Virus record (IMG/VR): IMGVR_UViG_3300045988_079665
DNA length: 64,000 nt
Direction: 5' to 3' (one strand)
Origin: a virus
Position numbers and translations under genes: made by a program. The notes beneath the pieces are model-generated. The model saw only the letters and a program-made list of their open reading frames with translations, had not been told where the DNA came from and did no database searches. Below, in pieces: positions 2,830-33,837 of the stretch (the stretch's first letter is position 1; each line of letters starts with the position of its first letter).

Positions 2830-3368
2830 AATTTCCTTTTAATTTCCTTTCGATTTCTAATAAAATTTTATTAAAACAAGTCGCAATGTTCATGCGCATA
2901 TTGACTTGATATATAGGGTTATTTTGTCGCACTATTAACTACTTACAGGTACTCACTTCACCAAGCCCTATACTATTTGCGCGGAATAGGATTATCACCA
3001 CACTATAAGCACATTTTCCAGTTTTGCTCTTCGGATGGTACTAGATGAGATTCGACCAACAGCCAACCTTAGCAGTGACGCGCGTTATTTACTAAGGATT
3101 TTTAGAATTGCCACACTCTCTACAAATTCATGTTAAATTGAATTTACAGTTGCGCAACCATCTTAAAATCAAGAGTGTGGCGACGTTGCCTCATAGCATC
3201 AAGTGGTCAGCTATCAACTATTCAGCAACTAGCATTATAACCTATAAACTAGACTATCCGCAGTGACCAAATCTTGAGGACTGTCTTACAAAGCTAGGAT
3301 TTTCGGCTTTTCCACCAGACGGCTATCAAGTGTGCTTACAATGCTAGTAGAGGCATGATAGACGTTTT

Positions 3369-3441
3369 TGACCGTGGTAGGATTCGAACCTACATCTCAT
3401 CCGCTATGAACGGAGAGTATTACCAATTAGGAGACGCGGTC
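3369..3441 (-). tRNA. tRNA-like element, anticodon CAU (Met/Ile2 type), D-stem unpaired
   Basis: Canonical T-arm GTAGGTTCGAATCCTAC, 6/7 acceptor pairs, anticodon loop TTCATAG. The D-arm has the GG but no stem pairing; no CCA encoded. Confidence 0.55.
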
Positions 3442-3448
3442 ATATGGA

Positions 3449-3562
3449 AATGGGCTTTAAGCGTCAACCCATTAGAAGCATTGGATTCCTATTCAGTTTA
3501 TTAAGTCGTATGTATCCAACAACCAGTGGACTTTGGTAATGGGCTTTAAAGATAAACCCATT
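3449..3562 (-). repeat. two paralogous 25-nt hairpins (3449..3473 and 3538..3562)
   Basis: aatgggctttaa(g/a)...aacccatt occurs twice, 89 nt apart; each folds into an 8-9 bp stem. Confidence 0.7.
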
Positions 3563-3880
3563 AGAACTAATCAGCAAGTCTACACTCTAACCTAGTCCTA
3601 AGACTGCTAGAACCTCTCCACATTTTTGTATGCCTCGCCTCGACTTACTGATTGCAACTATAATTAGTATCCCTTAGTTGCCTAGGGGCCAATCCCTGCT
3701 TAATCCGTCTGGTTCTCGTTATCGACATGATTGACTGCATATGCCTTTATGCTGTTAAGCAATTTAATTTCCTCTCACCAGCTCGATTTGCATTTGATAA
3801 CGAAGTGCTTATGACCAATTCTCTTCTCCGTATTAGTAGTCTATAAACCAGCCACTATATATCGTTTCAAGTGGACTTAA

Positions 3881-3959
3881 TGGTGCGGGATAGGAAAGTC
3901 AAATCCCTACGCCTTACGGATTTTGAATCCGCTCCCTCTGCCGATTGGGGTACCGAGCC
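3881..3959 (-). tRNA. possible degenerate tRNA-like element (anticodon-like loop TTCAAAA, CAA)
   Basis: Good anticodon-type arm GCGGA/TCCGT and an encoded CCA-like end, but the acceptor has 5/7 pairs and the T-arm is non-canonical. Confidence 0.25.
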
Positions 3960-4637
3960 ATATTTATCTTAAGCCGACTTTCTACCTCATAGCTATTTCT
4001 AGCATCGGCTCGTGAATGATGTTTACATATGATGTGCTATCACGCCAAAAAATCCATGTTGCTAAGGCATATCCCAACACACAACATAATGCTTAGCAAG
4101 ACAAATTTGTGTGCCAGTAGTCGCTAACTACTCTTGGGAACAAGTGAATATCGAACTACCATTTCTGGACGGTGCGACCGATTTATTCTTGTGCAAAGCA
4201 CTATGTTCATTCACTGTTAGTGACTCGCGATCAGGCTTCCTCTGATTTAACTGTCACCATTGCCACGATTTACTCCTTAGACGATGGCTGCCTCTAAGCC
4301 AACATTTCATATGTATGTAATATCCTTATATCACCTTTGCCGTTATGTTTTTGCCCTCATGCTAACGGAACACGCTCAGGCGCGACCCCAATTCTCTATA
4401 AGCTATCTGCCGCTTCTCAAACTCTGCACAGACCTGCTTCACAGGCGTGATATAGATTTGACGGTTATCTTCAAATCCGGTCGGATATTATAAACGATGG
4501 CTGTTCATCTCACTCCATTTACTACTGCTCCTGTGTTCCAAAGATTCTATATTGCTATTCATTATCGGCTTTGCCGTCCTGTCTTACCGGGCGCTCATAA
4601 TCTTTAGCTTCGTAGCACCATCATCTTTACATTCTCA

Positions 4638-5329: not shown

Positions 5330-5422
5330 TGGTACTGGCGCTCGGACTCGAACCGAGATTTTGCGGCAATCGACCGCTAAACTGTGTATAGGACAGCTGG
5401 CTTACCATTAACCGACACCAGC
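5330..5422 (-). tRNA. type-II (long variable arm) tRNA with unusual anticodon loop CCUAUAC (apparent anticodon UAU)
   Basis: All four arms pair: acceptor 7 bp, D-stem GGTT/AGCC, anticodon stem GCTGT/ACAGT, T-arm CTCGG-TTCGAGT-CCGAG. It has a 23-nt variable arm with its own stem, discriminator A and an encoded CCA. Confidence 0.8.
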
Positions 5423-22335: not shown

Positions 22336-24924
22336 GTGCCATTAACAGAGTTCTGTTATATACCTTCTGTGGCAACGGATGCTTTTTATACGCCAGAGGA
22401 ACAAGTAATACATAATCGACTTGTCAAGCTATATGCCTTGAGAATGCGCGAGAAGAATGGTCAGAATCGAAAATGGCGTGTTTCATCAATTAACCGTGTT
22501 ATCAAGAAGCATAAAGATGAACTTGTTGAGTTGCTGAGAAAATCGCTTGAAGACAACATTACAAGAGAACTTAATCCAGATGCGGTAACAGATAAGACAA
22601 TTATTAACCTGTTTTGTTCTGAGTTGACTCGTAGCCTTGGCATTAAGACATTTGAGCGAAGTGACAAAATTATTATTGTCAATGTTTTCTTTTTCGAGGT
22701 ATTAAACAGCATCATTCATAATGGATTCAATTACAATGGGGAGCATTATATTTTCTATTCATGTGGCGCTGGCATGATACGTACAAAGCGATTTATGGCT
22801 GTTCGTGAAAAAGATTATTTGGCGGTTGAACAAACCCTCATGTGTGGACTGACCATTGAATCAATCAATGCGCTGGGTGGCATGAATGAAAATAAACTAT
22901 TGAGCTATAAGAGCCTTATGGCATCTGCAACAGATAGAATTACAGACTTTGACATAGACCGTTGCATTATAGTTGATGATTTCGAAATGCCAGTTATGGC
23001 TGAATCAGATTTCATTGATTATACGGATTATAGCATTACGCGTAAAACATCAGAGACAATTATAGCTGAAACTGACGGTTGGGGAATGTGTTGCAAGCCC
23101 GGATTTAAGACACAGATTGTTCGTGCGCCTTGGATAAAAGGACTAGTGTCATACTTTGATTTTAGGGCATGGTTAAAGGAATATTGTCCTGCCGACGATT
23201 GGACTGTAACTGATATATACGGAAGAGAATGGAATATTATTGTGGATGACATTCAGTATATATTAACTAAATCAATGTTTAAGTTGTATAAATTTTATCC
23301 ATCTTGGCTTTGCTACAAGACTAATTTTAAGAGTTATGGTTGTTATTTTGGATGCTGTAAAGTTGAGGAAGATTATATACCAAAGGCGCGAATCAATTAT
23401 CAGATGCTTCAATCTCTAAGTGATATGACGGATAATGAGATTGAGCGGCTTATTGCCAAGACAGCAGATGAAATTAATAGTGTCGGGAGAGATTATCAAA
23501 CTACCATGAGACTATTAGGCGCGACTGAATACAATCAAACAAAATCAGCCATGCAAGAAGCGTTGACAATATATCCAGAATTATTTAAAGATGCGTATAA
23601 CCGGGAGTTGTTGAAACAGACAAAGAAAAGTTTGGTAAAACAAGCAAAAGGTGGCAGATTGAGAATTAACGGCAAATACCTGTTTATTTCGCCTGACCCT
23701 GTGGCATTTTGTGAGTGGTTGTTCAAAGGTGAGCAATTCCCAACTGGTATACTTGAGAATGGAGAGGTTTATACTAATCAATTCAAAGATGGTGACGAGC
23801 TTGATTGTTTGAGAAGCCCACACTTGTATCAGGAACACGCGGTTAGAATCAACAAGCGAAATGGGCTGACCGATAAATGGCTTGGCGGAACAAAATGCAT
23901 ATATTTCAGTGCACACGATATGATTAGTCGTATATTACAACAGGACTTTGATGGGGATATTTCCTTGGTTGTGAAGGATAAGACGTTGACAACTGTGGCA
24001 AAGCGCAATATGCAAGGAATTGTACCGTTATCGTATGACCTCAAAAAAGCACGTGGCGGTATTATTGATGCGGATAGACTGTATGAAGGTGTAAGTACTG
24101 CATATACAGGTGGGTCGATTGGCCCGATTAGTAATGCAATCAGTAAGGTAAAAAATGCTAATGGTGGTAAAATGACTGAGGAGCAAATTAGAGTAATTGC
24201 TTGGCTTACAATGAAGAACAATCAAATTATTGATTTTGCGAAAACGTTATGGAAAAGTGAGCCACCAAAAGAAATTGCAGATATTATAAAAAAATATACA
24301 AAGTCAAAATTGCCTCATTTTTTTATCTATGCCAAAGACAAAGACCCAGATACTCAAGTTGAGTTGCCAAATAATTCCACGATGAATCGTATATCAGCCA
24401 AAATCCCTACTTCTCGAATTCGATATAATAACAAGATTGGGAAATTCGATTGGACGATGTTGATAAATAAATCAGTCGATTATACTACTAGAGAAAATTC
24501 ACCAATCATTGAGCGGTATAATTGGTGGATGTGGAATCAGCGCCGATTTGATTATGGCGATGACCCGCATATCAATGAGGACGATTTATATAAATATCGT
24601 CGCATAGCACAAGATATTGTGGAATATAGCAACGAGCCACTAGATGTTGTGGCAAATAGCCTAGTTGCTTATCTATATACAGTTAAAAAATCAAGCAATA
24701 AGAAAATGCTGTGGGCTTGTTTCGGTTGGACGATTGTAGAGAATTTGAGAACCAATACGGCGCAACTTAATCCAATCTGTCCCATTTGCGGCAAGCGCTT
24801 CAAGCCGCGAGATGTATGTCAGCATTATTGCTCAGAGGAATGTTATAAGAAAGCAGATAATCAGAGGCGTACTGAATCGCGCGAAGCCCCACCTGTCCGC
24901 ACGGGGGACATGTTAAAACAGTAG
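22336..24924 (+). CDS. YonO-like single-subunit two-barrel (multisubunit-RNAP-related) RNA polymerase
   Basis: 862 aa. RSPHLY...(38 aa)...QQDFDGD mirrors the beta-prime RAPTLH...NADFDGD catalytic barrel. Size and phage context match SPbeta YonO, HU-like genes lie downstream as with yonN, and the C-terminus has a zinc ribbon. Confidence 0.7.
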   Translation: MPLTEFCYIPSVATDAFYTPEEQVIHNRLVKLYALRMREKNGQNRKWRVSSINRVIKKHKDELVELLRKSLEDNITRELNPDAVTDKTIINLFCSELTRSLGIKTFERSDKIIIVNVFFFEVLNSIIHNGFNYNGEHYIFYSCGAGMIRTKRFMAVREKDYLAVEQTLMCGLTIESINALGGMNENKLLSYKSLMASATDRITDFDIDRCIIVDDFEMPVMAESDFIDYTDYSITRKTSETIIAETDGWGMCCKPGFKTQIVRAPWIKGLVSYFDFRAWLKEYCPADDWTVTDIYGREWNIIVDDIQYILTKSMFKLYKFYPSWLCYKTNFKSYGCYFGCCKVEEDYIPKARINYQMLQSLSDMTDNEIERLIAKTADEINSVGRDYQTTMRLLGATEYNQTKSAMQEALTIYPELFKDAYNRELLKQTKKSLVKQAKGGRLRINGKYLFISPDPVAFCEWLFKGEQFPTGILENGEVYTNQFKDGDELDCLRSPHLYQEHAVRINKRNGLTDKWLGGTKCIYFSAHDMISRILQQDFDGDISLVVKDKTLTTVAKRNMQGIVPLSYDLKKARGGIIDADRLYEGVSTAYTGGSIGPISNAISKVKNANGGKMTEEQIRVIAWLTMKNNQIIDFAKTLWKSEPPKEIADIIKKYTKSKLPHFFIYAKDKDPDTQVELPNNSTMNRISAKIPTSRIRYNNKIGKFDWTMLINKSVDYTTRENSPIIERYNWWMWNQRRFDYGDDPHINEDDLYKYRRIAQDIVEYSNEPLDVVANSLVAYLYTVKKSSNKKMLWACFGWTIVENLRTNTAQLNPICPICGKRFKPRDVCQHYCSEECYKKADNQRRTESREAPPVRTGDMLKQ

Positions 24925-25012
24925 GAAATATATGGATAAAATTAACTCACCACAATATGTTGTGGTAGACTAATAGGGAGACATATCTTTGAAATGAAGG
25001 GTGGTGAATGTG

Positions 25013-26104
25013 ATGGCATACATGGCTTATAAATTTAGGATGTATCCCAATACTGAACAGGAAAATCTTATAATAAAGACATTTGGTTGTGTTCGGTTTA
25101 TTTATAATAAGATGCTTGAAGATAAAATAAAGTTTTATGAATGTACAAAGAAAAGATTAAATAATACTCCCGCACAATATAAAAAAGAATATCTTTGGTT
25201 AAGAGAAGTTGACGCTTTTGCTTTGTGCAACGCACAAATTCATTTGCAAGCAGCATATAATAATTTTTTTAAGAATCCAAAGAGCGGGTTTCCTAAATTT
25301 AAGAGTAAGAAAACGGGCAAGAATAGTTATACAACAAATAACCATTCGGAAAATATAAGGATTGTAGATAAAACTATTAAACTTCCGAAACTTGGAATGG
25401 TTAAAATAAAGCAACACAGAGAAATCAAGCAAAATCAAAAAATTAAGTCTGTTACCATCACAAGAAAACCATCTGGGAAATACTTTGTATCAATTTTAGT
25501 TGAATATAATATTGTTGAAAAGTCGGTAAAATTAAATAAGGAAAAATCGATTGGACTTGATTATTCAAGTCATAGCTTTTACGTCGATAGCCAATGTGTA
25601 GAAGCAGATTATCCACGATTTTATCGAGCGTCTCAAGATCATTTGTCCAAAGAGCAAAGGAAGTTGGCTACAATGAAGAAAGGTAGCAACAATTATTATA
25701 AGCAAAAAGTAAAAATTGCTACTATTCAAGAAAAAATAGCAAACCAAAGAAAAGATTGGATGCACAAATTAAGTACAGAATTATCAAATAAGTACGATTA
25801 TATTTGCGTTGAAGATATAAATTTACAACAAATGTCACAGCATTTAAATCTTGGGAAATCTACATATGACAATGGATTTGGTATGTTTAGAGATATGCTT
25901 TTTTATAAATTAAAGCAAAGAGGGAAAAAGTTCATCAAGATTGATAAATGGTATCCATCTAGTAAAATGTGTAGATATTGTGGCACGATAAATTCTAATT
26001 TAACTCTAAGCCAAAGAGTATGGACATGTGAATGTGGAAAAGTGCTTAATAGGGATGAAAATGCAGCGATTAACATATTGAACGCTGGATTAAGTATGAT
26101 ATAA
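25013..26104 (+). CDS. tnpB: TnpB (IS605 OrfB) RNA-guided nuclease
   Basis: N-terminal MAYKFRMYPN. RuvC triad contexts IGLDYSS, ICVEDINL and NRDENAAINIL, plus the zinc finger CRYCG...CECG. Confidence 0.85.
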   Translation: MAYMAYKFRMYPNTEQENLIIKTFGCVRFIYNKMLEDKIKFYECTKKRLNNTPAQYKKEYLWLREVDAFALCNAQIHLQAAYNNFFKNPKSGFPKFKSKKTGKNSYTTNNHSENIRIVDKTIKLPKLGMVKIKQHREIKQNQKIKSVTITRKPSGKYFVSILVEYNIVEKSVKLNKEKSIGLDYSSHSFYVDSQCVEADYPRFYRASQDHLSKEQRKLATMKKGSNNYYKQKVKIATIQEKIANQRKDWMHKLSTELSNKYDYICVEDINLQQMSQHLNLGKSTYDNGFGMFRDMLFYKLKQRGKKFIKIDKWYPSSKMCRYCGTINSNLTLSQRVWTCECGKVLNRDENAAINILNAGLSMI

Positions 26105-26638: not shown

Positions 26639-27194
26639 ATATAATAAGCTGAATCAAGAATTTTATGCTTATGCTGGTGGATTGCTCAATGTATCGCCAC
26701 AGACTGCCAAGAAATATTGGATGGGGTTTGTTGATACTATCATCCATATTCTTCATTTTGATGGCAAATGCCAAATGCCAAGTGTAGGCACATTTACACT
26801 AGAAGAATTGCCTGAGCGTAGAGTAATGGCTAAGAATGAGCAGGGTGAACTTGTTGAGCAAATTAACCCTGCTTGGTTTAAGATATTATACAAATATAAT
26901 GAGGATTTTCTTAATAACGTAAATGGACGCGGCGTTACAAAGAAATATCGTAGGCGTGTTCGTGAACGTAAGTTGACACCAAATGATCTCAAGCTGATAA
27001 CTCAAGCTGAAATGGAACGAACGGCAAAGCGAACATTAGAGCAAATGCAAAATGAGCGCATTGAGAAAGCAAAGCAACAGAGCTATGATGATTTTATCAA
27101 TGTCATCAATCAGAAAAAAGAAGATTATGAACGGAAAAAGAAGGAAAAGGAACAGAAATTGAATGAATCTAATGAAGATACGACAAGCGACTGA
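26631..27194 (+). CDS. divergent HU/IHF-like protein with basic/acidic coiled C-terminal tail
   Basis: TAKKYWMGFVDTIIHILHFDGKCQMPSVGTFTL resembles the HU core. Start set to ATG 26631 (AAGGAAG RBS, ATGGCTGA overlap with the upstream stop). Confidence 0.45.
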   Translation: MAEYNKLNQEFYAYAGGLLNVSPQTAKKYWMGFVDTIIHILHFDGKCQMPSVGTFTLEELPERRVMAKNEQGELVEQINPAWFKILYKYNEDFLNNVNGRGVTKKYRRRVRERKLTPNDLKLITQAEMERTAKRTLEQMQNERIEKAKQQSYDDFINVINQKKEDYERKKKEKEQKLNESNEDTTSD

Positions 27195-28347
27195 GCTGCT
27201 AGATAGCAAATTGATTGACTTGCAAGAATGGACGGCTCGTTGTCTTGGTGAGGATTATAGGGGCGTCTGGTCAGAGGAATATTTACGTCGATGTGCTGTG
27301 TTTGTTCGCAATATGCTAAATGGCGCAGACGATTGTGAGTCAGACGAAAAAGACGCTGAGATTTTAGCCCAGCTTAAAGAAGCAAAAATTGAGTTAGAGA
27401 AAGAACGCAAGAAATTACAGAGCGAGAATATTCAGTATGTTCAAAATCAGAGACTTGACGCAAGAGCAGACTTGATTCAAGAAAAGATTGCTGAGTCGAT
27501 TAAGAACCTTGAGCCGTTTACTATTCGTGAGTTTAACATTCTGCCGCAAATGAATGTAAGTGGACTTCTTTGTATTTCTGACCTTCATGCTGGCTCGACC
27601 TATGAAATCAAGGGTGCATATAATGAAATTGTAAACAAGTACAATTTTGATATTATGAGGGCGCGGCTTGATGGGTTGCTTAACAAGATGTGTAATGATG
27701 ACAACTGCATCTGGATTGATGATATTACGGTTGCTGTGCTCGGTGACTGCGTAGAGAATATTTTACGTACATCTAGTTTAACTAAGCTAAGAGAGCCAGT
27801 TATTGATACGGTTATCAAGTTGTCTGAATATCTGGCTGATTGGTTTGTTGAGTTACATGACCGGCTTGAAATTCCTGTTAATGTGGTGATGGTTGGTGGT
27901 AACCATGATGTATGCCGCCCGTTGACATCTAAGCCACAGTTTGAGGAAGAAAATCTAGGTAAAATCATTGTATGGTATCTACAAGAGCGGTTAAAGTCAG
28001 TAGATGGAATTACAGTTGATGATTACACAGATTGTGCTATTAAATACATTAAGAACAATGCAATCATGCTTCATCATGGGGATGGCGGCGATGTAACTGA
28101 GACAATGCGATATTTTGAAAATTTATATAATATTGACATTGATGAATGCTACGTTGGGCATCTACACCGACAAGAAATGAAGAATGCTGGTATTACTGAG
28201 TTAGGTGATAAACTGTGTTGGCGCGTTGGCTCGGTATGCGGTGTTGATGGATTTGCCAAGTCTATTCGTAAAGCATCAAGACCATCTTGTATGTTTACTA
28301 CATATTCAGAAGATGGTGCAGAATGGCGTAAAACATTTTATCTTTAA
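27163..28347 (+). CDS. calcineurin-like metallophosphoesterase (SbcD/Mre11-like)
   Basis: Ordered motifs ISDLHAGS (DxH), VLGDCVEN (GD), VGGNHD (GNHD), HHGD and VGHLH (GH). Confidence 0.75.
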   Translation: MNLMKIRQATELLDSKLIDLQEWTARCLGEDYRGVWSEEYLRRCAVFVRNMLNGADDCESDEKDAEILAQLKEAKIELEKERKKLQSENIQYVQNQRLDARADLIQEKIAESIKNLEPFTIREFNILPQMNVSGLLCISDLHAGSTYEIKGAYNEIVNKYNFDIMRARLDGLLNKMCNDDNCIWIDDITVAVLGDCVENILRTSSLTKLREPVIDTVIKLSEYLADWFVELHDRLEIPVNVVMVGGNHDVCRPLTSKPQFEEENLGKIIVWYLQERLKSVDGITVDDYTDCAIKYIKNNAIMLHHGDGGDVTETMRYFENLYNIDIDECYVGHLHRQEMKNAGITELGDKLCWRVGSVCGVDGFAKSIRKASRPSCMFTTYSEDGAEWRKTFYL

Positions 28348-28349
28348 TA

Positions 28350-28378
28350 TTGACAATCAATAGATTATGTGATATAAT
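28350..28378 (+). promoter_or_regulatory. sigma70-type promoter TTGACA-17-TATAAT
   Basis: Perfect consensus; there is no ORF downstream for about 970 nt. Confidence 0.8.
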
Positions 28379-28384
28379 ACAACT

Positions 28385-29306
28385 ATGGAATTGCGGCTAA
28401 TATCTGCGGAGTTAGCCTTGGCTTGGGGATGCGTCCTACAAGTCTCATAATAGAGGAAAAGTCTGAACTCTTTTCGCCGTCACAAGACGGAATTTAGAAC
28501 AATCGGTAGCGTCAGTTGCAAATGGCGCTACCAACTTAAATTGATTCATTCTCTGCTAGGTGATAGCTATTTTAGCTGTGTTAATCATGCTTGTGGGGCG
28601 ATTGACCCACCTAGTAGAGTTGGATATCTTCGCCGTGAATCTGCAATTCAGCAGAGCCTGATACGAGCGTGTCATATACTGTGGCGAGATATGACAATTT
28701 ATCTCGTGTACCATGCGTACATGGAGTTTTCAGGGTCGTTTATGGCGGCTCTTGCAAAATCCTATCCTTGACGATAGGCGTATAGCAACAGGTGTGTTAT
28801 ACGAGCGTATGAAGCATAGAACCGGGTTGTCTTTCGGCAATATGTGGACGTTAATCGAAGGTTTGCGGTATACCATATGGCAACAATGAAAACCGCATCG
28901 CCATTAGAACGATGCAAAGGCGAGATGTGATGGCATCTAATACCCATTGCACCATAATACCGAGCGACACGGTAAATATGTCGCACTTGTAAAATGATAA
29001 AACATAACAATGAGTGGCGCTCGATACCGGCATGCGCTTGATAAATACCGGACATTGATGAGTCCCTAGGCAAGGACAATAAACTACCTGTCGCTACTAC
29101 TCATTGGCGGCTATGAATATCCGAAAGGAGGTCACTATTCTCTTGAATTATCCACTGGTTTATCCGAAGCATAATTAAAGAAAGGATGGTGGTCAGAGCC
29201 AATCGGCTCATATCTACAATAAGCCCAACTCAATGGGAACTGTTGTTTAACTGAATATTGAACCTTGACAAATACAAAGCAGCTGAGAGCAATCTTGGCT
29301 GCTTTG
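28385..29306 (+). ncRNA. about 0.9-kb non-coding transcription unit (candidate large structured RNA)
   Basis: Bounded by a promoter and a terminator, with no credible ORF and elevated GC. Numerous helices, for example 28505..28532, 28685..28706, 28964..28984 and 29196..29209. Confidence 0.5.
29275..29306 (+). terminator. hairpin terminator
   Basis: 9-bp stem caaagcagc/gctgctttg followed by tcatattta. Confidence 0.55.
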
Positions 29307-29349
29307 TCATATTTATAGGAAAGTAAACGGAACAGAAAGGAATGAGAAT

Positions 29350-30174
29350 ATGTTTTGCCCATATTGCGGCAAGGAAAAGCAAGACAGCCAATTCTATAAA
29401 AGCCCAATCAAAACGGGCGAATATATTAAGCCATGCAAATCATGCGTAACTGAGATATATAAACAAGCTCTTGAATCTACTAAAGACCAAGGCGCGGCAT
29501 TATGGTCAACTTGTATGCAGACTGGCATTCCCATGAGACGTGCTGAATATACGGCTTGTCTTGATACGCTAGAAAAGGCGGCTAAAGGTAAAAAGCCTAG
29601 TCTATTTATGTTGTATCATACATACTTATCAACATCTCCTGATAAATTAACAGGCGTATGGGATAGCGATATGGAGTTGTCTAATTTCAAGGATTTGGGC
29701 GATGTAGCTAAGGGTGAAACAGATGAAGTTGCGCTTAAAGCAAGATGGCGCAAACAATGGGGCGGTGACTATGAAGATGAGGACTGTCAATGGCTAGATG
29801 ATATGTTCGATAGCTATACGGCAGATATATTTGAAATGGATACCGCTATGGAAATGCGTTATCGTGATCTGTGTAAGCTAGAACTTGAACAGTATAAAAA
29901 TGGTGTTAATAAAGACACTCAAGCACAGATCAAAACGTTAATGTCACTACTTAAACTTGATGATTTTAAGAGTAATCAGAAGTCGGACGCGGAACGAGCA
30001 TTTGAGAAACGTATAGCTTGGGTGGAATATACTAAACCATCTGAATGTGAAGATTTGACAAGATTCGTAGATATGGTTGGATATGAAAAGGACAAGGGTG
30101 AAAAGATGCGTAGCTTGCGCAACGCTGTTGCTGGCACTAGAGATTATCCAGCAATCCCGAAGGAGGAAGCATAA
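29350..30174 (+). CDS. terS: probable terminase small subunit with N-terminal zinc ribbon
   Basis: Lies immediately upstream of terL and overlaps it (ATAATG). N-terminal CPYCG...CKSC; assignment rests on position only. Confidence 0.5.
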   Translation: MFCPYCGKEKQDSQFYKSPIKTGEYIKPCKSCVTEIYKQALESTKDQGAALWSTCMQTGIPMRRAEYTACLDTLEKAAKGKKPSLFMLYHTYLSTSPDKLTGVWDSDMELSNFKDLGDVAKGETDEVALKARWRKQWGGDYEDEDCQWLDDMFDSYTADIFEMDTAMEMRYRDLCKLELEQYKNGVNKDTQAQIKTLMSLLKLDDFKSNQKSDAERAFEKRIAWVEYTKPSECEDLTRFVDMVGYEKDKGEKMRSLRNAVAGTRDYPAIPKEEA

Positions 30175-32018
30175 TGCGCTCTAGGATGGGCGGTCTTAGA
30201 GAATCATTTAAGGCTGATAAACTTCGCGCCGTATCTGGCATATCTAAAAAAATAGATAGTGCCTTAGAAGATAACATCATAGAGTGGACAACTCTATTCA
30301 GACGAAATTGGGATATATTTGCTGAATTTTATCTAGGGATTCCATTAAAACCATATCAGCGTCAGGCATTACATGAAATTGGTGTATCAGATGTGTACTT
30401 TTGGAGAGCAGGACGTGGCGGCGCAAAATCGTTTATTACTATGCTTGCGGCGGTCTGCAAGCTACTATTGTATCCAAACTGTCAGATAGTTATTACATCC
30501 TCTACTGTTGACCAAGCTAATAAGATGGTCAAAGAAAAGCTAGAGAAAGAATTGATAAAAAAGTTATCTCAACTACTTTTGCTTTATTATGAAAAAGACT
30601 GGATAAAAATAACAAAGCCGAACGATGGATATTATGTAGAGTGTACACTTAACAATTCGTCCATTACTGTTCTTGCCCCTGTTGAATCAGCTAGAGGTTC
30701 GCGTTCTAACTTTACCATATATGATGAGGTTGCCATTATGAAGAAAACGGCAATAGACCAAATCTTTGATGGGATGTTGTTTCCAAGGCAACCAAATTAT
30801 TTAAGCAATCCTGCATATTCTGGAAACAAGAGATGGATAGAAGAATCTAAGAGTATATATCTAACATCATCTAAGTTCAAGTTCCAGTGGTGGTATAGAT
30901 TGTGGTGCGATTGTGTAACAGGATATTATGTTGATAAGCGTACTAAATATGGCATATTCGCAACTGACTTTTTTGATAATATAGAAAATGGCTTAAAAAC
31001 ATGGGGTGATTATCGTAGAGCTAAAAGGCAGAACGACGATATATCATTTAGGACAGAATACTTAAATGAAGCGATTGGCGAGTCAGAGGATTCTTTCTTT
31101 AGTCTTGAATCATTTAAGGAAAATCAAGTTATTACAGATGCGTTTTGCCCACCAAAACCGATGGATTTATTGGTTGCTAGTGAATTAGAAGATGACGAGA
31201 AAAAAGACGATGAAGTGCGCCTCATTGTATCTGACTTTGCTTGGACAACAACTGGCAAAAAAGCAAACGAATCGGATAATAGCATTGCTATATGTATAAG
31301 AGCAAAGTGGAAAAAAGACCATTTTGATAAATATGTAGAATATATTGAACTGCTACCAACGGCAGATGACGCAGATGGTTGTGCTGATAGGTTAAAAGAA
31401 TTGTTTTGGTTGTATCAAGCAGACTATTTAGTGCCTGATGCTAGATCGGGTGGCGAAGCGGTTATGATAGCTTTATCTAAACCATATACCAATGAACGTT
31501 ATTCGGCGTTCATCAATAATCATGGCCTAACTATGGCTGATAAAAAAGAATATCATGTGGCTCGACCCGATAAGCTAGATTACTATAGAGCCAATGCAGT
31601 AGACCCAAATGCTTATCCTTGTATCATACCTATTGTTGGTAGTGAAACGCTCAATACGTCTTATTGGAAAGCAACTAAAATGTCACTTGAGAATAATCGT
31701 ATAAAATTCTTGATAGGGATGAGCGATAAGCAAGATGTTATTGTTGAAACTGGCGAATATTACAAATACACCGGCGAACAGATAGCAGATATACTTGCGC
31801 CTCATGGCAATACTGATTTGCTTATATCGGAGGCAGTTAATTTAACCACCATATTCAAAGGCGAAAACATTAAACTGGAAGCGCCGAGAACAGGGCATCG
31901 TGACCGTATTGTTACATTAGCTATGGGTATTTTAATATGTGATTATATTGAAAATGAATGGAATAGACAGAATCATGCTGAAGAATATGATTTAGATGAC
32001 ATTCAATTAGTATATTGA
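30174..32018 (+). CDS. terL: terminase large subunit
   Basis: Walker A-like AGRGGAKS and Walker B-like FTIYDEVA; 614 aa; directly upstream of the portal-sized gene. Confidence 0.85.
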   Translation: MRSRMGGLRESFKADKLRAVSGISKKIDSALEDNIIEWTTLFRRNWDIFAEFYLGIPLKPYQRQALHEIGVSDVYFWRAGRGGAKSFITMLAAVCKLLLYPNCQIVITSSTVDQANKMVKEKLEKELIKKLSQLLLLYYEKDWIKITKPNDGYYVECTLNNSSITVLAPVESARGSRSNFTIYDEVAIMKKTAIDQIFDGMLFPRQPNYLSNPAYSGNKRWIEESKSIYLTSSKFKFQWWYRLWCDCVTGYYVDKRTKYGIFATDFFDNIENGLKTWGDYRRAKRQNDDISFRTEYLNEAIGESEDSFFSLESFKENQVITDAFCPPKPMDLLVASELEDDEKKDDEVRLIVSDFAWTTTGKKANESDNSIAICIRAKWKKDHFDKYVEYIELLPTADDADGCADRLKELFWLYQADYLVPDARSGGEAVMIALSKPYTNERYSAFINNHGLTMADKKEYHVARPDKLDYYRANAVDPNAYPCIIPIVGSETLNTSYWKATKMSLENNRIKFLIGMSDKQDVIVETGEYYKYTGEQIADILAPHGNTDLLISEAVNLTTIFKGENIKLEAPRTGHRDRIVTLAMGILICDYIENEWNRQNHAEEYDLDDIQLVY

Positions 32019-32262
32019 TATTTGCCTATGAAGCGGCTACTATGTTGGTGTGTGGCTGTGGAGGTGCTATTAGGGTTGTGTGGTGAATATACTCCAAGTT
32101 CCAACTTAGGCTTAATTGAAAGCTGAAAATAAAAACACTCAAAAATATCAAACGAGCGGATAGGGAGGACAAGTAGCTCAATGAACTTTGGCATACGTTA
32201 ATGAAGTCCATAATCTAACCGCTCTAATATATAAACAATAAAACAAAGAAAGGAGGTTGAAG

Positions 32263-33837
32263 ATGCCAAAAAATAATGAAGATGTAAAGCTATCTAAAAA
32301 TGACCTTCAAGACATTATTGATTTTAGTGCTGGCTTGATGGCGGTTGATAATTTTTATTCACCATTTTTGAGCAATCAGCTATTGACCAATCTAAACAAT
32401 AATCCACGCTTACCTAATGCAGAGGCGGTAAAAAAGGCGCTCAATGACTACAAGAATAGTGGCGCTGATTTACAGGGGTTTGTAGAATTTGCATCAGCGT
32501 TTGATATGATTTTCAAGCGTACTTTATATTCTTATGCAAATGTGCTATCTTTCGACCTTCAGATAACCTGCAAAAACGCATATACAAAAGGCGACTATGA
32601 ATCAGAGGAATATAAGAAAGACCGGCAAACAGTAGATAATTTCTTGACTAATTTTGACTACAAGAAAGAATTTTATAATGTTCTGCTAAACGTCCTAAAG
32701 CGTGACTCATATTTTACTTGGTTCAGAAAGACTAAGAGCGGCAATCGCGGCAAGATGAAGTATGCTCTACAAATTATGCCACAAGATTATTGTATGCTTA
32801 CTGGATACTTTGAAAAAGGGTTGCTGTGGTCTTTTAATGTACTGTATTTTATGCAACCGGGCGTAGATATTGAGGGGTTTGACCCAAGTCTTAAAAAGAC
32901 ATATCTTGATGCGATTGAAAATGCGGAGCTAAATTATAAGCCGTCTGCACCACTCGATAAACGTAATGGTAGTTATGCACTATGGGCAGATGTATCACCG
33001 CTTAATGGTGCTTATGCTTGGAAATTTTCCACAGACAACTTTGCTAACAATCCATTCTTAGCACCATATGTAGCCAATGTTCTACGCAGTGATGAGGTTG
33101 GTGAGTTGCAATATAACAAAGACCTTATCTCTGCGGCTGGTATTTTAGCTGGTGAAATTAGACTATTTGATTCAGCCAAGTCAGGCACGAAGGCGAATCA
33201 ATTTGCTATTGACCCGAAAACGCTTGGAGCATTTATGCAAAAGGCGGCTAATGGACTCAAGAATATTGCTAAACTGGCCGCTATGCCACTTGAGAATATC
33301 AAGTTTTTCCAATTTGAGGACAAGAACCCAAATAGCTATACAAATGAACTAACTACAACAGCTGGTATTGGTACTGGTATTAGCCGTGTTATCTATTCAT
33401 CTGATAAGATGAGCAATGCTGAGCTAGAGGCGGCGCTTAATGAGGTATATCAGACTATGAAGCCAATGTATGCTCAGTTCAATAATTTCCTTGATTTCTA
33501 TGTCAATCAAATGACTAGCAAATATAAGTTTAAGTTTGAGTTTGTTGGCTCTAACTATCAATTTGAGCGTGATGCCAGATTTGATAAGATGATGAAAATG
33601 GCTGATAAGGGACTTGTGCTCAATTCGTCCGCATGGGCTAGTGCTATTGGCATGAATCCTATTACATTCGATAGGATGCTTGCTGAGAGCAAATATACTG
33701 GATGGATTGACAAGTATTCAACGCTTATGTTAAATGCAAATACCACAGCGCAATCAAATGAAGGTGGCCGCCCCCGTCAGTCAGGAACATCACTTACTGA
33801 AAGCGGAGAGGCAAGCCGAGAAACATTAGAGGAATGA
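32263..33837 (+). CDS. portal protein (by position and size)
   Basis: 524 aa ORF following terL, with an AGGAGG RBS 6 nt before ATG 32263. Confidence 0.65.
   Translation: MPKNNEDVKLSKNDLQDIIDFSAGLMAVDNFYSPFLSNQLLTNLNNNPRLPNAEAVKKALNDYKNSGADLQGFVEFASAFDMIFKRTLYSYANVLSFDLQITCKNAYTKGDYESEEYKKDRQTVDNFLTNFDYKKEFYNVLLNVLKRDSYFTWFRKTKSGNRGKMKYALQIMPQDYCMLTGYFEKGLLWSFNVLYFMQPGVDIEGFDPSLKKTYLDAIENAELNYKPSAPLDKRNGSYALWADVSPLNGAYAWKFSTDNFANNPFLAPYVANVLRSDEVGELQYNKDLISAAGILAGEIRLFDSAKSGTKANQFAIDPKTLGAFMQKAANGLKNIAKLAAMPLENIKFFQFEDKNPNSYTNELTTTAGIGTGISRVIYSSDKMSNAELEAALNEVYQTMKPMYAQFNNFLDFYVNQMTSKYKFKFEFVGSNYQFERDARFDKMMKMADKGLVLNSSAWASAIGMNPITFDRMLAESKYTGWIDKYSTLMLNANTTAQSNEGGRPRQSGTSLTESGEASRETLEE

What the first reader, a model, noticed from the sequence alone, without database searches (positions are those of the whole stretch)
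28350..29310. 0.9-kb promoter-to-terminator non-coding unit just upstream of the terminase genes
A perfect TTGACA-17-TATAAT promoter (28350..28378) fires into about 920 nt with no credible ORF on either strand; the track ORFs here are Arg/His/Cys/Tyr-rich and lack ribosome sites. GC is elevated relative to the flanking genes. The region is packed with helices: ggtagcg/cgctacc (28505..28532), cgagat/atctcg (28685..28706), tgcggt/accgca (near 28863..28897), gcgaca/tgtcgc (28964..28984) and gagcc/ggctc (29196..29209). It ends in a 9-bp stem with a T-rich tail (29275..29306). In this compact genome it looks like a dedicated RNA gene. Its size and prophage context fit ROOL/GOLLD-type ornate RNAs, but I see no obvious homology to the other non-coding unit at 2830..4631. 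The phage may therefore carry two different large RNAs.
Basis: partly seen in the sequence, partly recalled or inferred. Interest (0 to 1): 0.8.

Follow-up and report, generated by a model that had tools for sequence, protein, structure and literature searches.

The report
Phage cassette array of small RNAs
The 0.9-kb gene-free stretch is a real non-coding RNA locus, but it is a string of about nine small, separately folding RNA cassettes (one is a "drum" RNA) that related gut phages gain and lose individually, not one giant ornate RNA.

Summary
There is a perfect sigma-70-type promoter at 28350-28378, no conserved ORF on either strand, raised GC, a fold far more stable than shuffles (z -5.9), and a covarying terminator hairpin at 29274-29307.

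The interpretation of one ROOL/GOLLD-like large RNA does not hold. Rfam gives no ROOL or GOLLD hit. In about 56 close relatives with the same flanking genes, this intergenic region varies from 258 to about 1250 nt. It is built from independently present or absent modules, here called A-I, in 26 different combinations.

Module F is a drum RNA (RF02958). The window copy scores 37.6 bits, below the threshold of 43; orthologous copies in relatives pass it. At the same locus, relatives carry DUF3800-VIII and skipping-rope RNAs.

Two modules are new structured motifs, conserved even in distant relatives:
- C (28545-28628): 18 of 23 pairs have compensatory changes.
- I-core (29111-29249): 28 of 34 pairs have compensatory changes. 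It is always present and always followed by a terminator.

The locus lies between yonJ-like and yonG-like genes of an SPbeta-like gut phage that has a YonO-type RNA polymerase.

Function is unknown. The best guess is a set of trans-acting, protein-binding sRNAs of the "DUF3800-associated" class, possibly decoys against host RNase-H-like defence proteins.

The parts
27163..28347 (+). Upstream flanking gene: YonJ-like metallophosphatase (394 aa)
   Evidence: Pfam Metallophos. A 97%-identical cluster and its homologs carry the precomputed family PF27387, YonJ_CC. This gene lies immediately upstream of the RNA array in all relatives, in two alleles that are 46% identical.
28350..28378 (+). Sigma-70-type promoter TTGACA-17-TATAAT with TG extension
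   Evidence: Matches 12 of 12 positions. Both hexamers are invariant in all relatives that carry module A. It is absent, together with module A, from about half of the relatives.
28349..28445 (+). Module A: promoter cassette plus two hairpins (for example 28395-28417, GGCUAA...UUAGCC)
   Evidence: Present or absent as a unit. Changes are one-sided only, with no compensatory pairs. An ATG at 28385 would start a leaderless 21-codon ORF, which is weakly conserved.
28446..28544 (+). Module B: three hairpins (28456-28475, 28477-28490, 28505-28532)
   Evidence: Fold z -3.95. 99.8% of cells are paired and 2 pairs are compensatory (CCGUC/GACGG to CUGUC/GACAG); 2 of 500 shuffles reach this.
28545..28628 (+). 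Module C: new structured RNA motif. A three-helix junction with an invariant loop AUGCUUGYGGGGC and conserved flanks UUCA / UUGAAUAUA
   Evidence: Fold z -6.2. Model R1 finds copies in relatives whose YonG-like protein is only 32-44% identical (34-49 bits). 18 of 23 pairs are compensatory, 97.2% of cells are paired and 0 of 500 shuffles reach this. No Rfam match.
28629..28699 (+). Module D: two hairpins
   Evidence: Present in 8 of 25 IMG/VR relatives. 9 of 19 pairs are compensatory (CUGC/GCAG to CCAC/GUGG; GUCAUAU/AUAUGAC to GACGU/ACGUC); 0 of 500 shuffles reach this.
28700..28767 (+). Module E: two hairpins
   Evidence: Present in 18 of 25 IMG/VR relatives. 99.3% of cells are paired and 2 pairs are compensatory. 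The consensus fold is -17.8 kcal/mol on the + strand and -9.6 on the - strand.
28768..28900 (+). Module F: a hairpin plus a drum RNA (RF02958-like) at 28804-28900
   Evidence: The window copy scores 37.6 bits, E 3.5e-5, covers the full model and is below the gathering score of 43. Orthologs in L024, L013, L005 and L054 score 43.3-49.1 bits. 5 pairs are compensatory and 0 of 500 shuffles reach this.
28901..29002 (+). Module G: variable hairpin cassette
   Evidence: Present in a minority of relatives. 2 pairs are compensatory. This is the weakest module, and the consensus fold is not better on the + strand than on the - strand.
29003..29110 (+). Module H: a long closing stem (CAAUGAGU.../...ACUCAUUG) with inner hairpins
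   Evidence: Present in 17-20 of 25 IMG/VR relatives. 99% of cells are paired against 95.9% when shuffled (0 of 500 reach it). The consensus fold is -17.8 kcal/mol on + and -6.2 on -.
29111..29249 (+). Module I core: new structured RNA motif, the only constant element of the locus. It has a GNRA hairpin, a long hairpin flanked by two GGAGGU(C/G)AC boxes, the hairpin GAGCC/GGCUC and a nested hairpin. Conserved blocks: GGAGGUCAC, CAUAUCU, AUAAG..AACUGU
   Evidence: Present in every relative checked. 28 of 34 pairs are compensatory, 96.9% of cells are paired and 0 of 500 shuffles reach this. It is 93-99% identical in nucleotides where the adjacent yonG-like gene is 74-77% identical. No Rfam match.
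29274..29307 (+). Intrinsic-terminator-like hairpin that closes the RNA unit
   Evidence: Terminator scan. The stem covaries, and the loop is inverted in L001 and L052. In every lineage a strong hairpin with an A-tract before it and a U-tract after it follows the I core, although these hairpins are not homologous to one another. In L061/L062 an extra gene sits between the I core with its own terminator and the yonG-like gene.
29350..30174 (+). Downstream flanking gene: YonG-like protein (274 aa), in the position of a small terminase, followed by TerL at 30174-32018
   Evidence: No hit in the local Pfam library. The equivalent genes in L148 and L150 carry PF27269, YonG_N. TerL has the TerL_ATPase domain.
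32023..32143 (+). Second drum RNA, outside the finding, between TerL and the next gene
   Evidence: 45 bits against a gathering score of 43. Orthologs in relatives score 48-55 bits.

Best explanation
The region is a co-transcribed, modular array of small structured non-coding RNAs, not one large RNA.

**Shown**
- It consists of about nine cassettes of 68-139 nt. Each folds on its own on the + strand. Close relatives gain and lose them individually at a fixed locus between the yonJ-like and yonG-like genes of an SPbeta-like gut phage.
- One cassette is a drum RNA. Relatives carry DUF3800-VIII and skipping-rope RNAs at the same locus.
- Two cassettes, C and I-core, are new motifs with strong covariation.
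- I-core followed by a terminator is the invariant 3' end of the locus.

**Inferred**
- In this phage, host RNA polymerase starts at the consensus promoter (transcription start about 28385). It reads through all cassettes and stops at 29274-29307, giving a precursor of about 0.92 kb.
- In relatives that lack the promoter cassette, the array is transcribed as part of the late operon driven by the YonO-type polymerase.
- The precursor is probably cut at the AU-rich linkers into individual sRNAs.
- The RNAs act in trans as protein-binding RNAs of the class that Weinberg et al. (2017) found next to genes for DUF3800 (RNase-H-like) proteins and related proteins.

**Speculative**
- No such protein gene was found in the phage, and the cassette content turns over quickly. 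The most likely role is therefore a cocktail of RNA decoys or antidotes against host DUF3800-type (defence-linked) proteins.
For: **Modularity**
- The intergenic region is 258-1216 nt in 25 IMG/VR relatives with the same flanks, and up to about 1250 nt in metagenome relatives.
- The block map and segmentation define the modules.
- 56 close relatives show 26 module combinations, always on the + strand. Distant relatives are mosaic as well.

**Known families**
- Drum.
- DUF3800-VIII, 47.8-54.3 bits against a gathering score of 40.2.
- Skipping-rope, 59.1 bits against 36.7.

**Structure**
- Covariation of C, I-core and the other modules.
- Many G-U pairs, and more stable consensus folds on + than on -.
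- Whole-transcript fold z -5.9.

**Non-coding:**

**Transcription unit**
- Promoter and terminator in the window.
- No + strand consensus promoter in relatives that lack module A.
- A terminator after I-core in all lineages.
- The locus is independent of the yonG-like gene in L061/L062.

**SPbeta context**
- YonO-, YonJ- and YonG-type Pfam families on the homologs.
- A sub-threshold DUF3800-VIII match lies in that SPbeta gap (34.4 bits).

**RNA class**
- Drum, skipping-rope and the DUF3800 RNAs are linked to DUF3800 or related genes (PMC5737381).
- DUF3800 has an RNase-H-like fold and occurs in retron type VII, Cas12a2/a3 and Cas13 loci.
- No DUF3800 gene was found among 84 window ORFs or in the 10-kb flanks of relatives.
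Against: - There are no expression data. Co-transcription, processing and action in trans are all inferred.
- The window's drum copy is below Rfam's gathering score.
- Module A shows no covariation and module G little.
- Most covariation in B, D, E, G and H comes from closely related sequences. The alignments for C and I-core were fitted to the models.
- About 15-25 kb of the phage genome was not inspected, so a DUF3800-type partner gene could lie there.
- Embedding in a late operon is unusual for anti-defence factors, which are typically made early.
- I-core is invariant and is always followed by a terminator just upstream of the packaging genes. That fits a cis-regulatory role at least as well as a trans role.
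- The function of the drum and DUF3800 RNA classes is unknown, so the decoy idea rests on context alone.
Confidence: 0.55

Rival explanations
1. Cis-acting leader. I-core plus its terminator is a regulatory element at the entry to the packaging genes. It could be a terminator that stops host RNA polymerase while the YonO-type polymerase reads through, or an attenuator or antitermination RNA. The upstream cassettes would be passengers or modulators.
For: - I-core is the only invariant module.
- It is 93-99% conserved where the neighbouring gene is about 75% conserved.
- In every lineage it is followed by a strong terminator hairpin of unrelated sequence.
- It lies directly upstream of the yonG-like and TerL genes.
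- SPbeta late genes are one YonO-dependent operon, and YonO lacks most of the conserved domains of multi-subunit RNA polymerases; the paper discusses the flap, needed for hairpin-dependent pausing and termination, among these domains (PMC5467207).
Against: - In L061/L062 I-core and a terminator are followed by an unrelated 386-aa gene, not by the yonG-like gene.
- This does not explain the drum, DUF3800-VIII and skipping-rope cassettes, nor the second drum after TerL.
- No alternative antiterminator pairing was identified.
- No in vitro data exist for YonO at terminators.
Confidence: 0.2
2. RNP partners of phage proteins. The RNAs work with the adjacent YonJ-like metallophosphatase/nuclease or with the terminase-portal machinery in DNA processing or packaging. 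This would be analogous in spirit to phi29 pRNA.
For: - The array always abuts the yonJ-like gene, and a second drum lies between TerL and the next gene.
- Isolated relatives without a yonJ homolog annotated in the fetched stretch (PMBT24, CB473P3) have no array.
- In SPbetaL7 the DUF3800-VIII-like candidate is just upstream of yonK-yonJ.
- Weinberg et al. describe the partner genes as lying on either side and in either orientation.
Against: - Essential machinery RNAs would not show 26 presence/absence patterns.
- TR-TP1 has a yonJ-like gene but none of these motifs.
- There is no evidence that YonJ binds RNA.
- SPbetaL7 has no I-core.
Confidence: 0.1
3. One large ornate RNA of the ROOL/GOLLD type, with variable peripheral domains.
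For: - The region is a single promoter-to-terminator unit and is very structured.
- It is in a phage context, as many ROOL and GOLLD RNAs are (PMC5737381).
Against: - No ROOL or GOLLD hit at E <= 10.
- Every part except the last 140 nt can be missing.
- Modules fold locally, and no conserved long-range helix was found.
- One module is an independent Rfam family.
Confidence: 0.04
4. Not RNA at all. The region would be decayed protein genes, or a DNA-level element such as a pac site, an origin or a recombination hotspot.
For: - The position next to the terminase genes is typical of pac sites.
- The mosaic structure shows frequent recombination.
Against: - The ORFs are not conserved.
- Compensatory changes are strand-specific, with many G-U pairs on + that would be A-C on -.
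- There are matches to curated RNA families.
- There are no repeats.
Confidence: 0.03

Closest known systems
drum RNA (Rfam RF02958; Weinberg et al. 2017)
   Same: Module F at 28804-28900 aligns over the whole model and keeps the conserved UGAA, GGA, GGUU...ACCA and GAAAAC blocks and the three helices. Orthologous copies pass the gathering score. A second copy that passes the threshold follows TerL.
   Different: The window copy scores 37.6 bits, below 43. It lacks the variable insert and has no terminator of its own, because it is embedded in a multi-RNA array. Described drum RNAs are stand-alone and are followed by terminators.
DUF3800-associated RNA motifs (DUF3800-I to -XI, skipping-rope)
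   Same: DUF3800-VIII and skipping-rope occupy the same locus in relatives and are interchangeable with the window's cassettes. They share the small size, the complex fold and the terminator at the end of the unit.
   Different: Neither family is in this window. No DUF3800 gene was found nearby. Motifs C and I-core match no described member.
Phage tRNA / small stable RNA gene clusters (for example the T4 tRNA region with species 1 and 2 RNAs)
   Same: Tandem small structured RNA genes are co-transcribed from one promoter, and gene content is mosaic between related phages (my knowledge; not tested here).
   Different: There are no tRNA-like folds in the region.
ROOL and GOLLD large ornate RNAs
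   Same: Phage-borne, non-coding, highly structured and of unknown function.
   Different: There is no homology, no single conserved fold, and each unit is 70-140 nt rather than 580-800 nt.
SPbeta late-operon leader (YonO start site upstream of yonK with an unannotated ncRNA)
   Same: The phage lineage and gene neighbourhood are the same (YonO, HU, YonJ, YonG, TerL). A non-coding RNA lies at the head of the late genes. A DUF3800-VIII-like sequence lies in the SPbetaL7 gap.
   Different: In SPbeta the RNA lies upstream of yonK-yonJ, not between yonJ and yonG. The match is sub-threshold (34.4 bits against 40.2). No I-core or C motif was found in SPbetaL7 (for I-core; C was not searched there).
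RNA-based anti-defence mimics (pseudo-ToxI of phage phiTE; RNA anti-CRISPRs)
   Same: As a working analogy only: phage-encoded structured RNAs without the partner protein, in a fast-evolving locus (my knowledge).
   Different: There are no tandem repeats. No similarity to a host RNA was shown, and no target protein is known.

Membership tests
ROOL (Rfam) / GOLLD (Rfam) | Match to the family covariance model | tested here: not met
   No hit at the gathering score in the window and none at E <= 10 in 28200-29450.
ROOL / GOLLD | One conserved multi-junction fold that spans the whole RNA (about 580 or 800 nt) | tested here: not met
   All modules except I are dispensable, there are 26 module combinations, and some relatives have an intergenic region of only 258 nt.
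drum RNA (RF02958) | Covariance-model score at or above the gathering score of 43 bits | tested here: not met
   The window copy at 28804-28900 scores 37.6 bits, E 3.5e-5. Orthologs score 43.3-49.1 bits, so it is a divergent member by orthology.
drum RNA (RF02958) | Conserved helices and conserved nucleotides of the consensus | tested here: met
   The alignment covers model positions 1-112 with the conserved blocks kept. Three mismatched pairs lie in the middle of the second helix. Five pairs are compensatory among 33 orthologs, and 0 of 500 shuffles reach this.
drum RNA (RF02958) | Its own Rho-independent terminator at the 3' end | tested here: not met
   No + strand terminator follows 28900. 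The only + strand terminator-like site found in 27500-30000 is at 29274-29307.
drum / DUF3800-class RNAs | A gene for the associated protein (DUF3800 or a related protein) nearby | tested here: not met
   No PF12686 hit among 84 window ORFs at E <= 1e-4. None in the 10-kb flanks of relatives beyond either end of the window. About 15-25 kb of the genome was not seen. The protein linked specifically to drum could not be looked up, because the supplement is not held.
DUF3800-VIII (RF03075) and skipping-rope (RF02924) | Match to the family model in the window | tested here: not met
   There is none in the window. They occur only in relatives: L021, L013 and L016 and L098.
tRNA gene cluster | Cloverleaf detected by ARAGORN or the Rfam tRNA model | tested here: not met
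   No tRNA in 28350-29310.
Type III antitoxin RNA array (ToxI-like) | Tandem direct repeats upstream of a toxin gene | tested here: not met
   No tandem repeats and no internal similarity.
Bacterial transcription unit (sigma-70 promoter plus intrinsic terminator) | Consensus -35 and -10 hexamers with 17-nt spacing, and a GC-rich hairpin with a U tail | tested here: met
   The promoter matches 12 of 12. The hairpin has 15 pairs and the tail CATATTTATA, which is a weak U tract. The stem covaries. Activity was not tested.

The most novel reading that the evidence does not exclude
The yonJ-yonG locus is an RNA "anti-defence island". Each cassette (drum, DUF3800-VIII, skipping-rope, C, D, E, H and so on) would be a decoy or antidote RNA for a different clade of host RNase-H-like DUF3800-type defence effectors. 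Phages would shuffle these cassettes in an arms race. This would assign a function to a whole group of orphan RNA classes. It would also reveal an RNA-only counterpart of protein anti-defence gene clusters.
Probability: 0.15. Interest if true: 0.9.

Novelty: new variant of a known kind. Interest (0 to 1): 0.62.

Why it matters
Drum, skipping-rope and the eleven DUF3800 RNA motifs have been orphans since 2017: structurally complex, widespread and of unknown function.

- **Interchangeable cassettes.** Three of these classes occupy one fixed locus in a family of abundant human-gut phages. That argues they belong to one functional class and places that function in phage biology.
- **New candidates.** The locus adds at least two new, strongly supported motifs (C and I-core) to the class.
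- **A tractable model.** The locus ties these RNAs to the SPbeta/YonO late-operon architecture. An unannotated ncRNA already reported in B. subtilis SPbeta may be a DUF3800-VIII relative, and it could be studied genetically.
- **A method.** Mosaic presence and absence among near-identical phages can be used to split a "large non-coding region" into its real functional units.

Tried and rejected
- **BLASTN of the region against 50,697 GenBank phage records:** no match.
- **Rfam, all 4227 models, at E <= 10 on the region:** only drum, plus noise hits to microRNA and lncRNA models.
- **ARAGORN:** no tRNA in the region.
- **Tandem repeats, and similarity to the rest of the window:** none.
- **Coding hypothesis:** rejected, because the ORFs are not kept in relatives. 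Module A's leaderless 21-codon ORF remains unresolved.
- **Search for a DUF3800 gene in the phage:** negative in the window and in the flanks of relatives. One look-up found no record.
- **Isolated relatives with known hosts** (Enterocloster phages PMBT24 and CB473P3, Thomasclavelia phage TR-TP1): no C, I-core, drum or DUF3800 RNAs.
- **I-core in SPbetaL7:** absent.
- **Pattern scans of IMG/VR for C and I-core:** these returned only this phage family, plus pattern matches that neither model confirmed.
- **Genome collection scan:** one MAG contig only.
- **Weinberg 2017 supplement** on the drum-associated protein: not held.
- **Literature searches for a function of DUF3800 or drum:** nothing decisive.
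- **A promoter inside the array for relatives that lack module A:** none found on the + strand.
Full report
**1. What is in the sequence**

The stretch 28348-29349 lies between two genes.
- Upstream is a 394-aa gene at 27163-28347. It has a Pfam Metallophos hit. Homologs carry the precomputed family YonJ_CC.
- Downstream is a 274-aa gene at 29350-30174, followed by the large terminase at 30174-32018.

- TTGACA-17-TATAAT at 28350-28378 is a 12/12 match with a TG extension.
- GC rises to 0.44-0.46 from 0.38-0.40 in the flanks.
- The 29274-29307 hairpin has 15 pairs.
- The 926-nt RNA predicted from the start site to the terminator folds at -305 kcal/mol against -259 +/- 8 for dinucleotide shuffles (z -5.9).
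- The mechanical ORFs (up to 105 aa) are not kept in relatives. They stay open at full length in 0/45, 0/47, 0/48 and 1/57 relatives.
- There are no tRNAs, no tandem repeats, and no similarity to the rest of the window.

**2. It is not one RNA**

Rfam finds no ROOL, GOLLD or other large RNA at the gathering score or at E <= 10.

I used the two flanking proteins as anchors and fetched related loci from three sources:
- 25 loci from IMG/VR;
- 55 loci from metagenomes, all those with a stated source being human gut;
- one MAG contig.

The flanking genes are the same, but the intergenic region ranges from 258 to about 1250 nt. BLASTN and an E-INS-i alignment show a mosaic of blocks. I call the blocks A (28349-28445), B (-28544), C (-28628), D (-28699), E (-28767), F (-28900), G (-29002), H (-29110) and I (-29349).

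Among 56 close relatives there are 26 different combinations, always on the + strand. Eight relatives keep only I. None has the window's full set of nine. Relatives also carry cassettes that the window lacks. One of those, DUF3800-VIII, sits before E in L016 but after E in L021, so cassettes are also shuffled. Relatives whose YonG-like protein is only 32-44% identical have equally mosaic arrays. A single 0.9-kb fold is therefore excluded.

**3. What the cassettes are**

*Module F.* It contains a full-length match to drum RNA (RF02958) at 28804-28900. The score is 37.6 bits (E 3.5e-5), below the gathering score of 43. Its orthologs in L024, L013, L005 and L054 score 43.3-49.1 bits. A second drum at 32023-32143 passes the threshold.

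*Other known families, in relatives only.* At the same locus, relatives carry DUF3800-VIII (47.8-54.3 bits against 40.2). One distant relative, L098, carries skipping-rope (59.1 bits against 36.7). Weinberg et al. (2017) grouped exactly these classes. They described drum, skipping-rope and DUF3800-I to -XI as complex small RNAs, several of them followed by terminators. These RNAs are encoded near genes for DUF3800 or related proteins, on either side and in either orientation, and their function is unknown (PMC5737381).

*Module C (new motif).*
- Model R1 finds it in distant relatives at 34-49 bits, in most of them directly after the stop codon of the upstream gene.
- 18 of 23 pairs show compensatory changes, 97.2% of cells are paired, and 0 of 500 shuffles reach this.
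- The loop AUGCUUGYGGGGC is invariant.

*Module I core, 29111-29249 (new motif).*
- Model R2 finds it in every lineage examined. This includes three further YonJ-YonG loci reached through the protein search.
- 28 of 34 pairs are compensatory, 96.9% of cells are paired, and 0 of 500 shuffles reach this.
- It is 93-99% identical in nucleotides between phages whose adjacent yonG-like gene is 74-77% identical.

These two alignments were fitted to the models, which flatters the counts. The slid-partner controls (30-55% paired) and the by-eye compensatory changes in model-free MAFFT alignments agree with them.

*The remaining modules.*
- B, D, E, G and H each have 2-9 compensatory pairs among close relatives. 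D is the clearest.
- All of these except G fold better on + than on -.
- Module A shows no compensatory change.
- Frequent G-U pairs on + would be A-C on -, which sets the strand.

Neither C nor I-core matches any Rfam family. By pattern scan plus model check, both are confined to this phage family in IMG/VR.

**4. Transcription context**

The promoter belongs to cassette A and is missing from about half of the relatives. Those relatives have no + strand consensus promoter in the intergenic region.

In all lineages I-core is followed by a strong hairpin with an A-tract before it and a U-tract after it. These hairpins have unrelated sequences. In the close relatives the stem covaries, and in two of them the loop is inverted. 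In L061/L062 an unrelated 386-aa gene sits between I-core with its own terminator and the yonG-like gene. The RNA unit is therefore autonomous and is not simply the leader of that gene.

The phage is SPbeta-like.
- TerL is 39% identical to Enterocloster phages and 27% to SPbeta.
- The homologous loci in related phages have the gene order YonO-type polymerase (PF05183), HU, YonJ_CC, YonG_N, TerL.
- The window itself has an 862-aa ORF, HU-type genes, the yonJ-like gene, the yonG-like gene and TerL in the corresponding order.

[quoted passage not shown] SPbetaL7 has a 1.5-kb unannotated gap there. That gap contains a sub-threshold DUF3800-VIII match (34.4 bits, E 0.013), and the match aligns with the gut-phage copies.

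My inference has two parts. In this window, host RNA polymerase makes a precursor of about 0.92 kb from the consensus promoter and stops at 29307. In relatives without cassette A, and probably here too late in infection, the array is read as part of the YonO-driven late operon.

**5. Mechanism**

*Shown:* an array of independently folding, independently exchangeable small RNAs. One belongs to the drum family. The others include two deeply conserved new motifs.

*Inferred:* co-transcription, processing at the AU-rich linkers, and action in trans as protein-binding RNAs.

DUF3800 has an RNase-H-like fold. It is found fused or adjacent to retron type VII reverse transcriptases and next to Cas12a2/a3 and Cas13 loci. 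I found no DUF3800 gene among 84 window ORFs. I also found none in the 10 kb beyond either end of the window in relatives. About 15-25 kb of the genome remains unseen.

Three things suggest that the cassettes neutralise or hijack host DUF3800-type proteins:
- the phage carries several different RNAs of this class;
- it appears to lack the partner protein;
- the cassettes turn over at arms-race speed.

This is context-based speculation, and I give it about 0.15. The broader statement, a trans-acting sRNA cassette array, gets about 0.55.

The main rival (0.2) is that I-core plus its terminator is a cis element that insulates or gates the packaging genes. The two are not mutually exclusive. Lesser rivals are an RNP role with YonJ or the terminase (0.1), a single ornate RNA (0.04), and a non-RNA element (0.03).

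**6. Comparison and novelty**

The drum family is known. Phage clusters of small stable RNAs, such as tRNA arrays, are known in kind. What I could not find described in the searched literature:
- a heterogeneous, hypervariable cassette array that mixes drum, DUF3800-VIII and skipping-rope RNAs with new motifs at one fixed locus;
- the two motifs C and I-core;
- the link to the YonO late-operon architecture.

I rate it a new variant of a known kind, with interest 0.62. It is a real, well-supported RNA locus, and it makes an open question (what these orphan RNA classes do) more tractable. Its function remains unproven, and the specific ROOL/GOLLD claim is wrong.

Noticed in passing
window 32023-32143 (+): A second drum RNA (45 bits, gathering score 43) lies between TerL and the next gene, the 526-aa ORF at 32257-33837. 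It is conserved in relatives at 48-55 bits. A further hairpin region at 32154-32225 follows it.
   Followed up: partly
window 2830-4631 and 5330-5422 (- strand): The other non-coding unit holds tRNA-Met(CAT) at 3368-3442 and a weak tRNA-like match at 3884-3958. It also has a 39-nt match to bacterial 23S rRNA model positions 1098-1143 at 4267-4305 (22 bits, E 5.6e-4), a possible rRNA-fragment mimic. A tRNA-Ile(TAT) with a long insert lies at 5330-5422. There are no drum or DUF3800-class RNAs there.
   Followed up: partly
window 28385-28450 (+): An ATG lies exactly 7 nt after the -10 box, so the transcript could be a leaderless mRNA for a 21-aa peptide (MELRLISAELALAWGCVLQVS). Relatives show about 3 synonymous and 5 non-synonymous changes (counted by eye), a variable C-terminus, and a premature stop in L024. 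The same bases form a hairpin whose changes mostly keep pairing. Whether it codes for a peptide or acts as RNA is unresolved.
   Followed up: partly
L001 3668->3639 and L012 3121->3092 (- strand; relatives): A perfect 12/12 sigma-70-type promoter with a TG extension lies on the minus strand, inside the 3' end of the divergent (46%-identity) allele of the yonJ-like gene. It points antisense into that gene.
   Followed up: no
window 25001-26104 (+): A TnpB / IS605 OrfB-type gene (HTH_OrfB_IS605, OrfB_IS605 and Cas12f1-like_TNB domains) lies inside the phage late region. Its guide RNA was not looked for.
   Followed up: no
window 22336-24924 (+): An 862-aa ORF has no hit in the local Pfam library. 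It occupies the position of the YonO-type single-chain RNA polymerase (PF05183 RdRP) in related loci, which is annotated as "RNA-dependent RNA polymerase" in PMBT24 and TR-TP1.
   Followed up: partly
L151 (Bacillus phage SPbetaL7) 2081-3626, hit at 3303-3369: The 1.5-kb unannotated gap between the HU-like gene and yonK contains a sub-threshold DUF3800-VIII match (34.4 bits against 40.2). The part of the gap nearest yonK (3230-3625) is structured (z -3.1). This may be the "unannotated non-coding RNA" at the YonO start site reported by Forrest et al. 2017.
   Followed up: partly
L092 6462-6732; L146 (Enterocloster phage CB473P3) 7449-7779: Group I introns (72-96 bits) interrupt the large-terminase region of some relatives. 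In CB473P3 an intron-associated endonuclease is annotated there. The window's TerL is uninterrupted.
   Followed up: no
L061 1801-2961 and L062 (relatives): A 386-aa ORF with a Thr/Ala/Asn-rich repeat segment is inserted between the I-core terminator and the yonG-like gene. It looks like a moron at the RNA locus.
   Followed up: no
L144 / L145 11902-13302 (relatives, beyond the window's left end): A beta-CASP / metallo-beta-lactamase protein has a weak Anti-Pycsar Apyc1 hit. A DNA polymerase III alpha gene there contains an intein.
   Followed up: no
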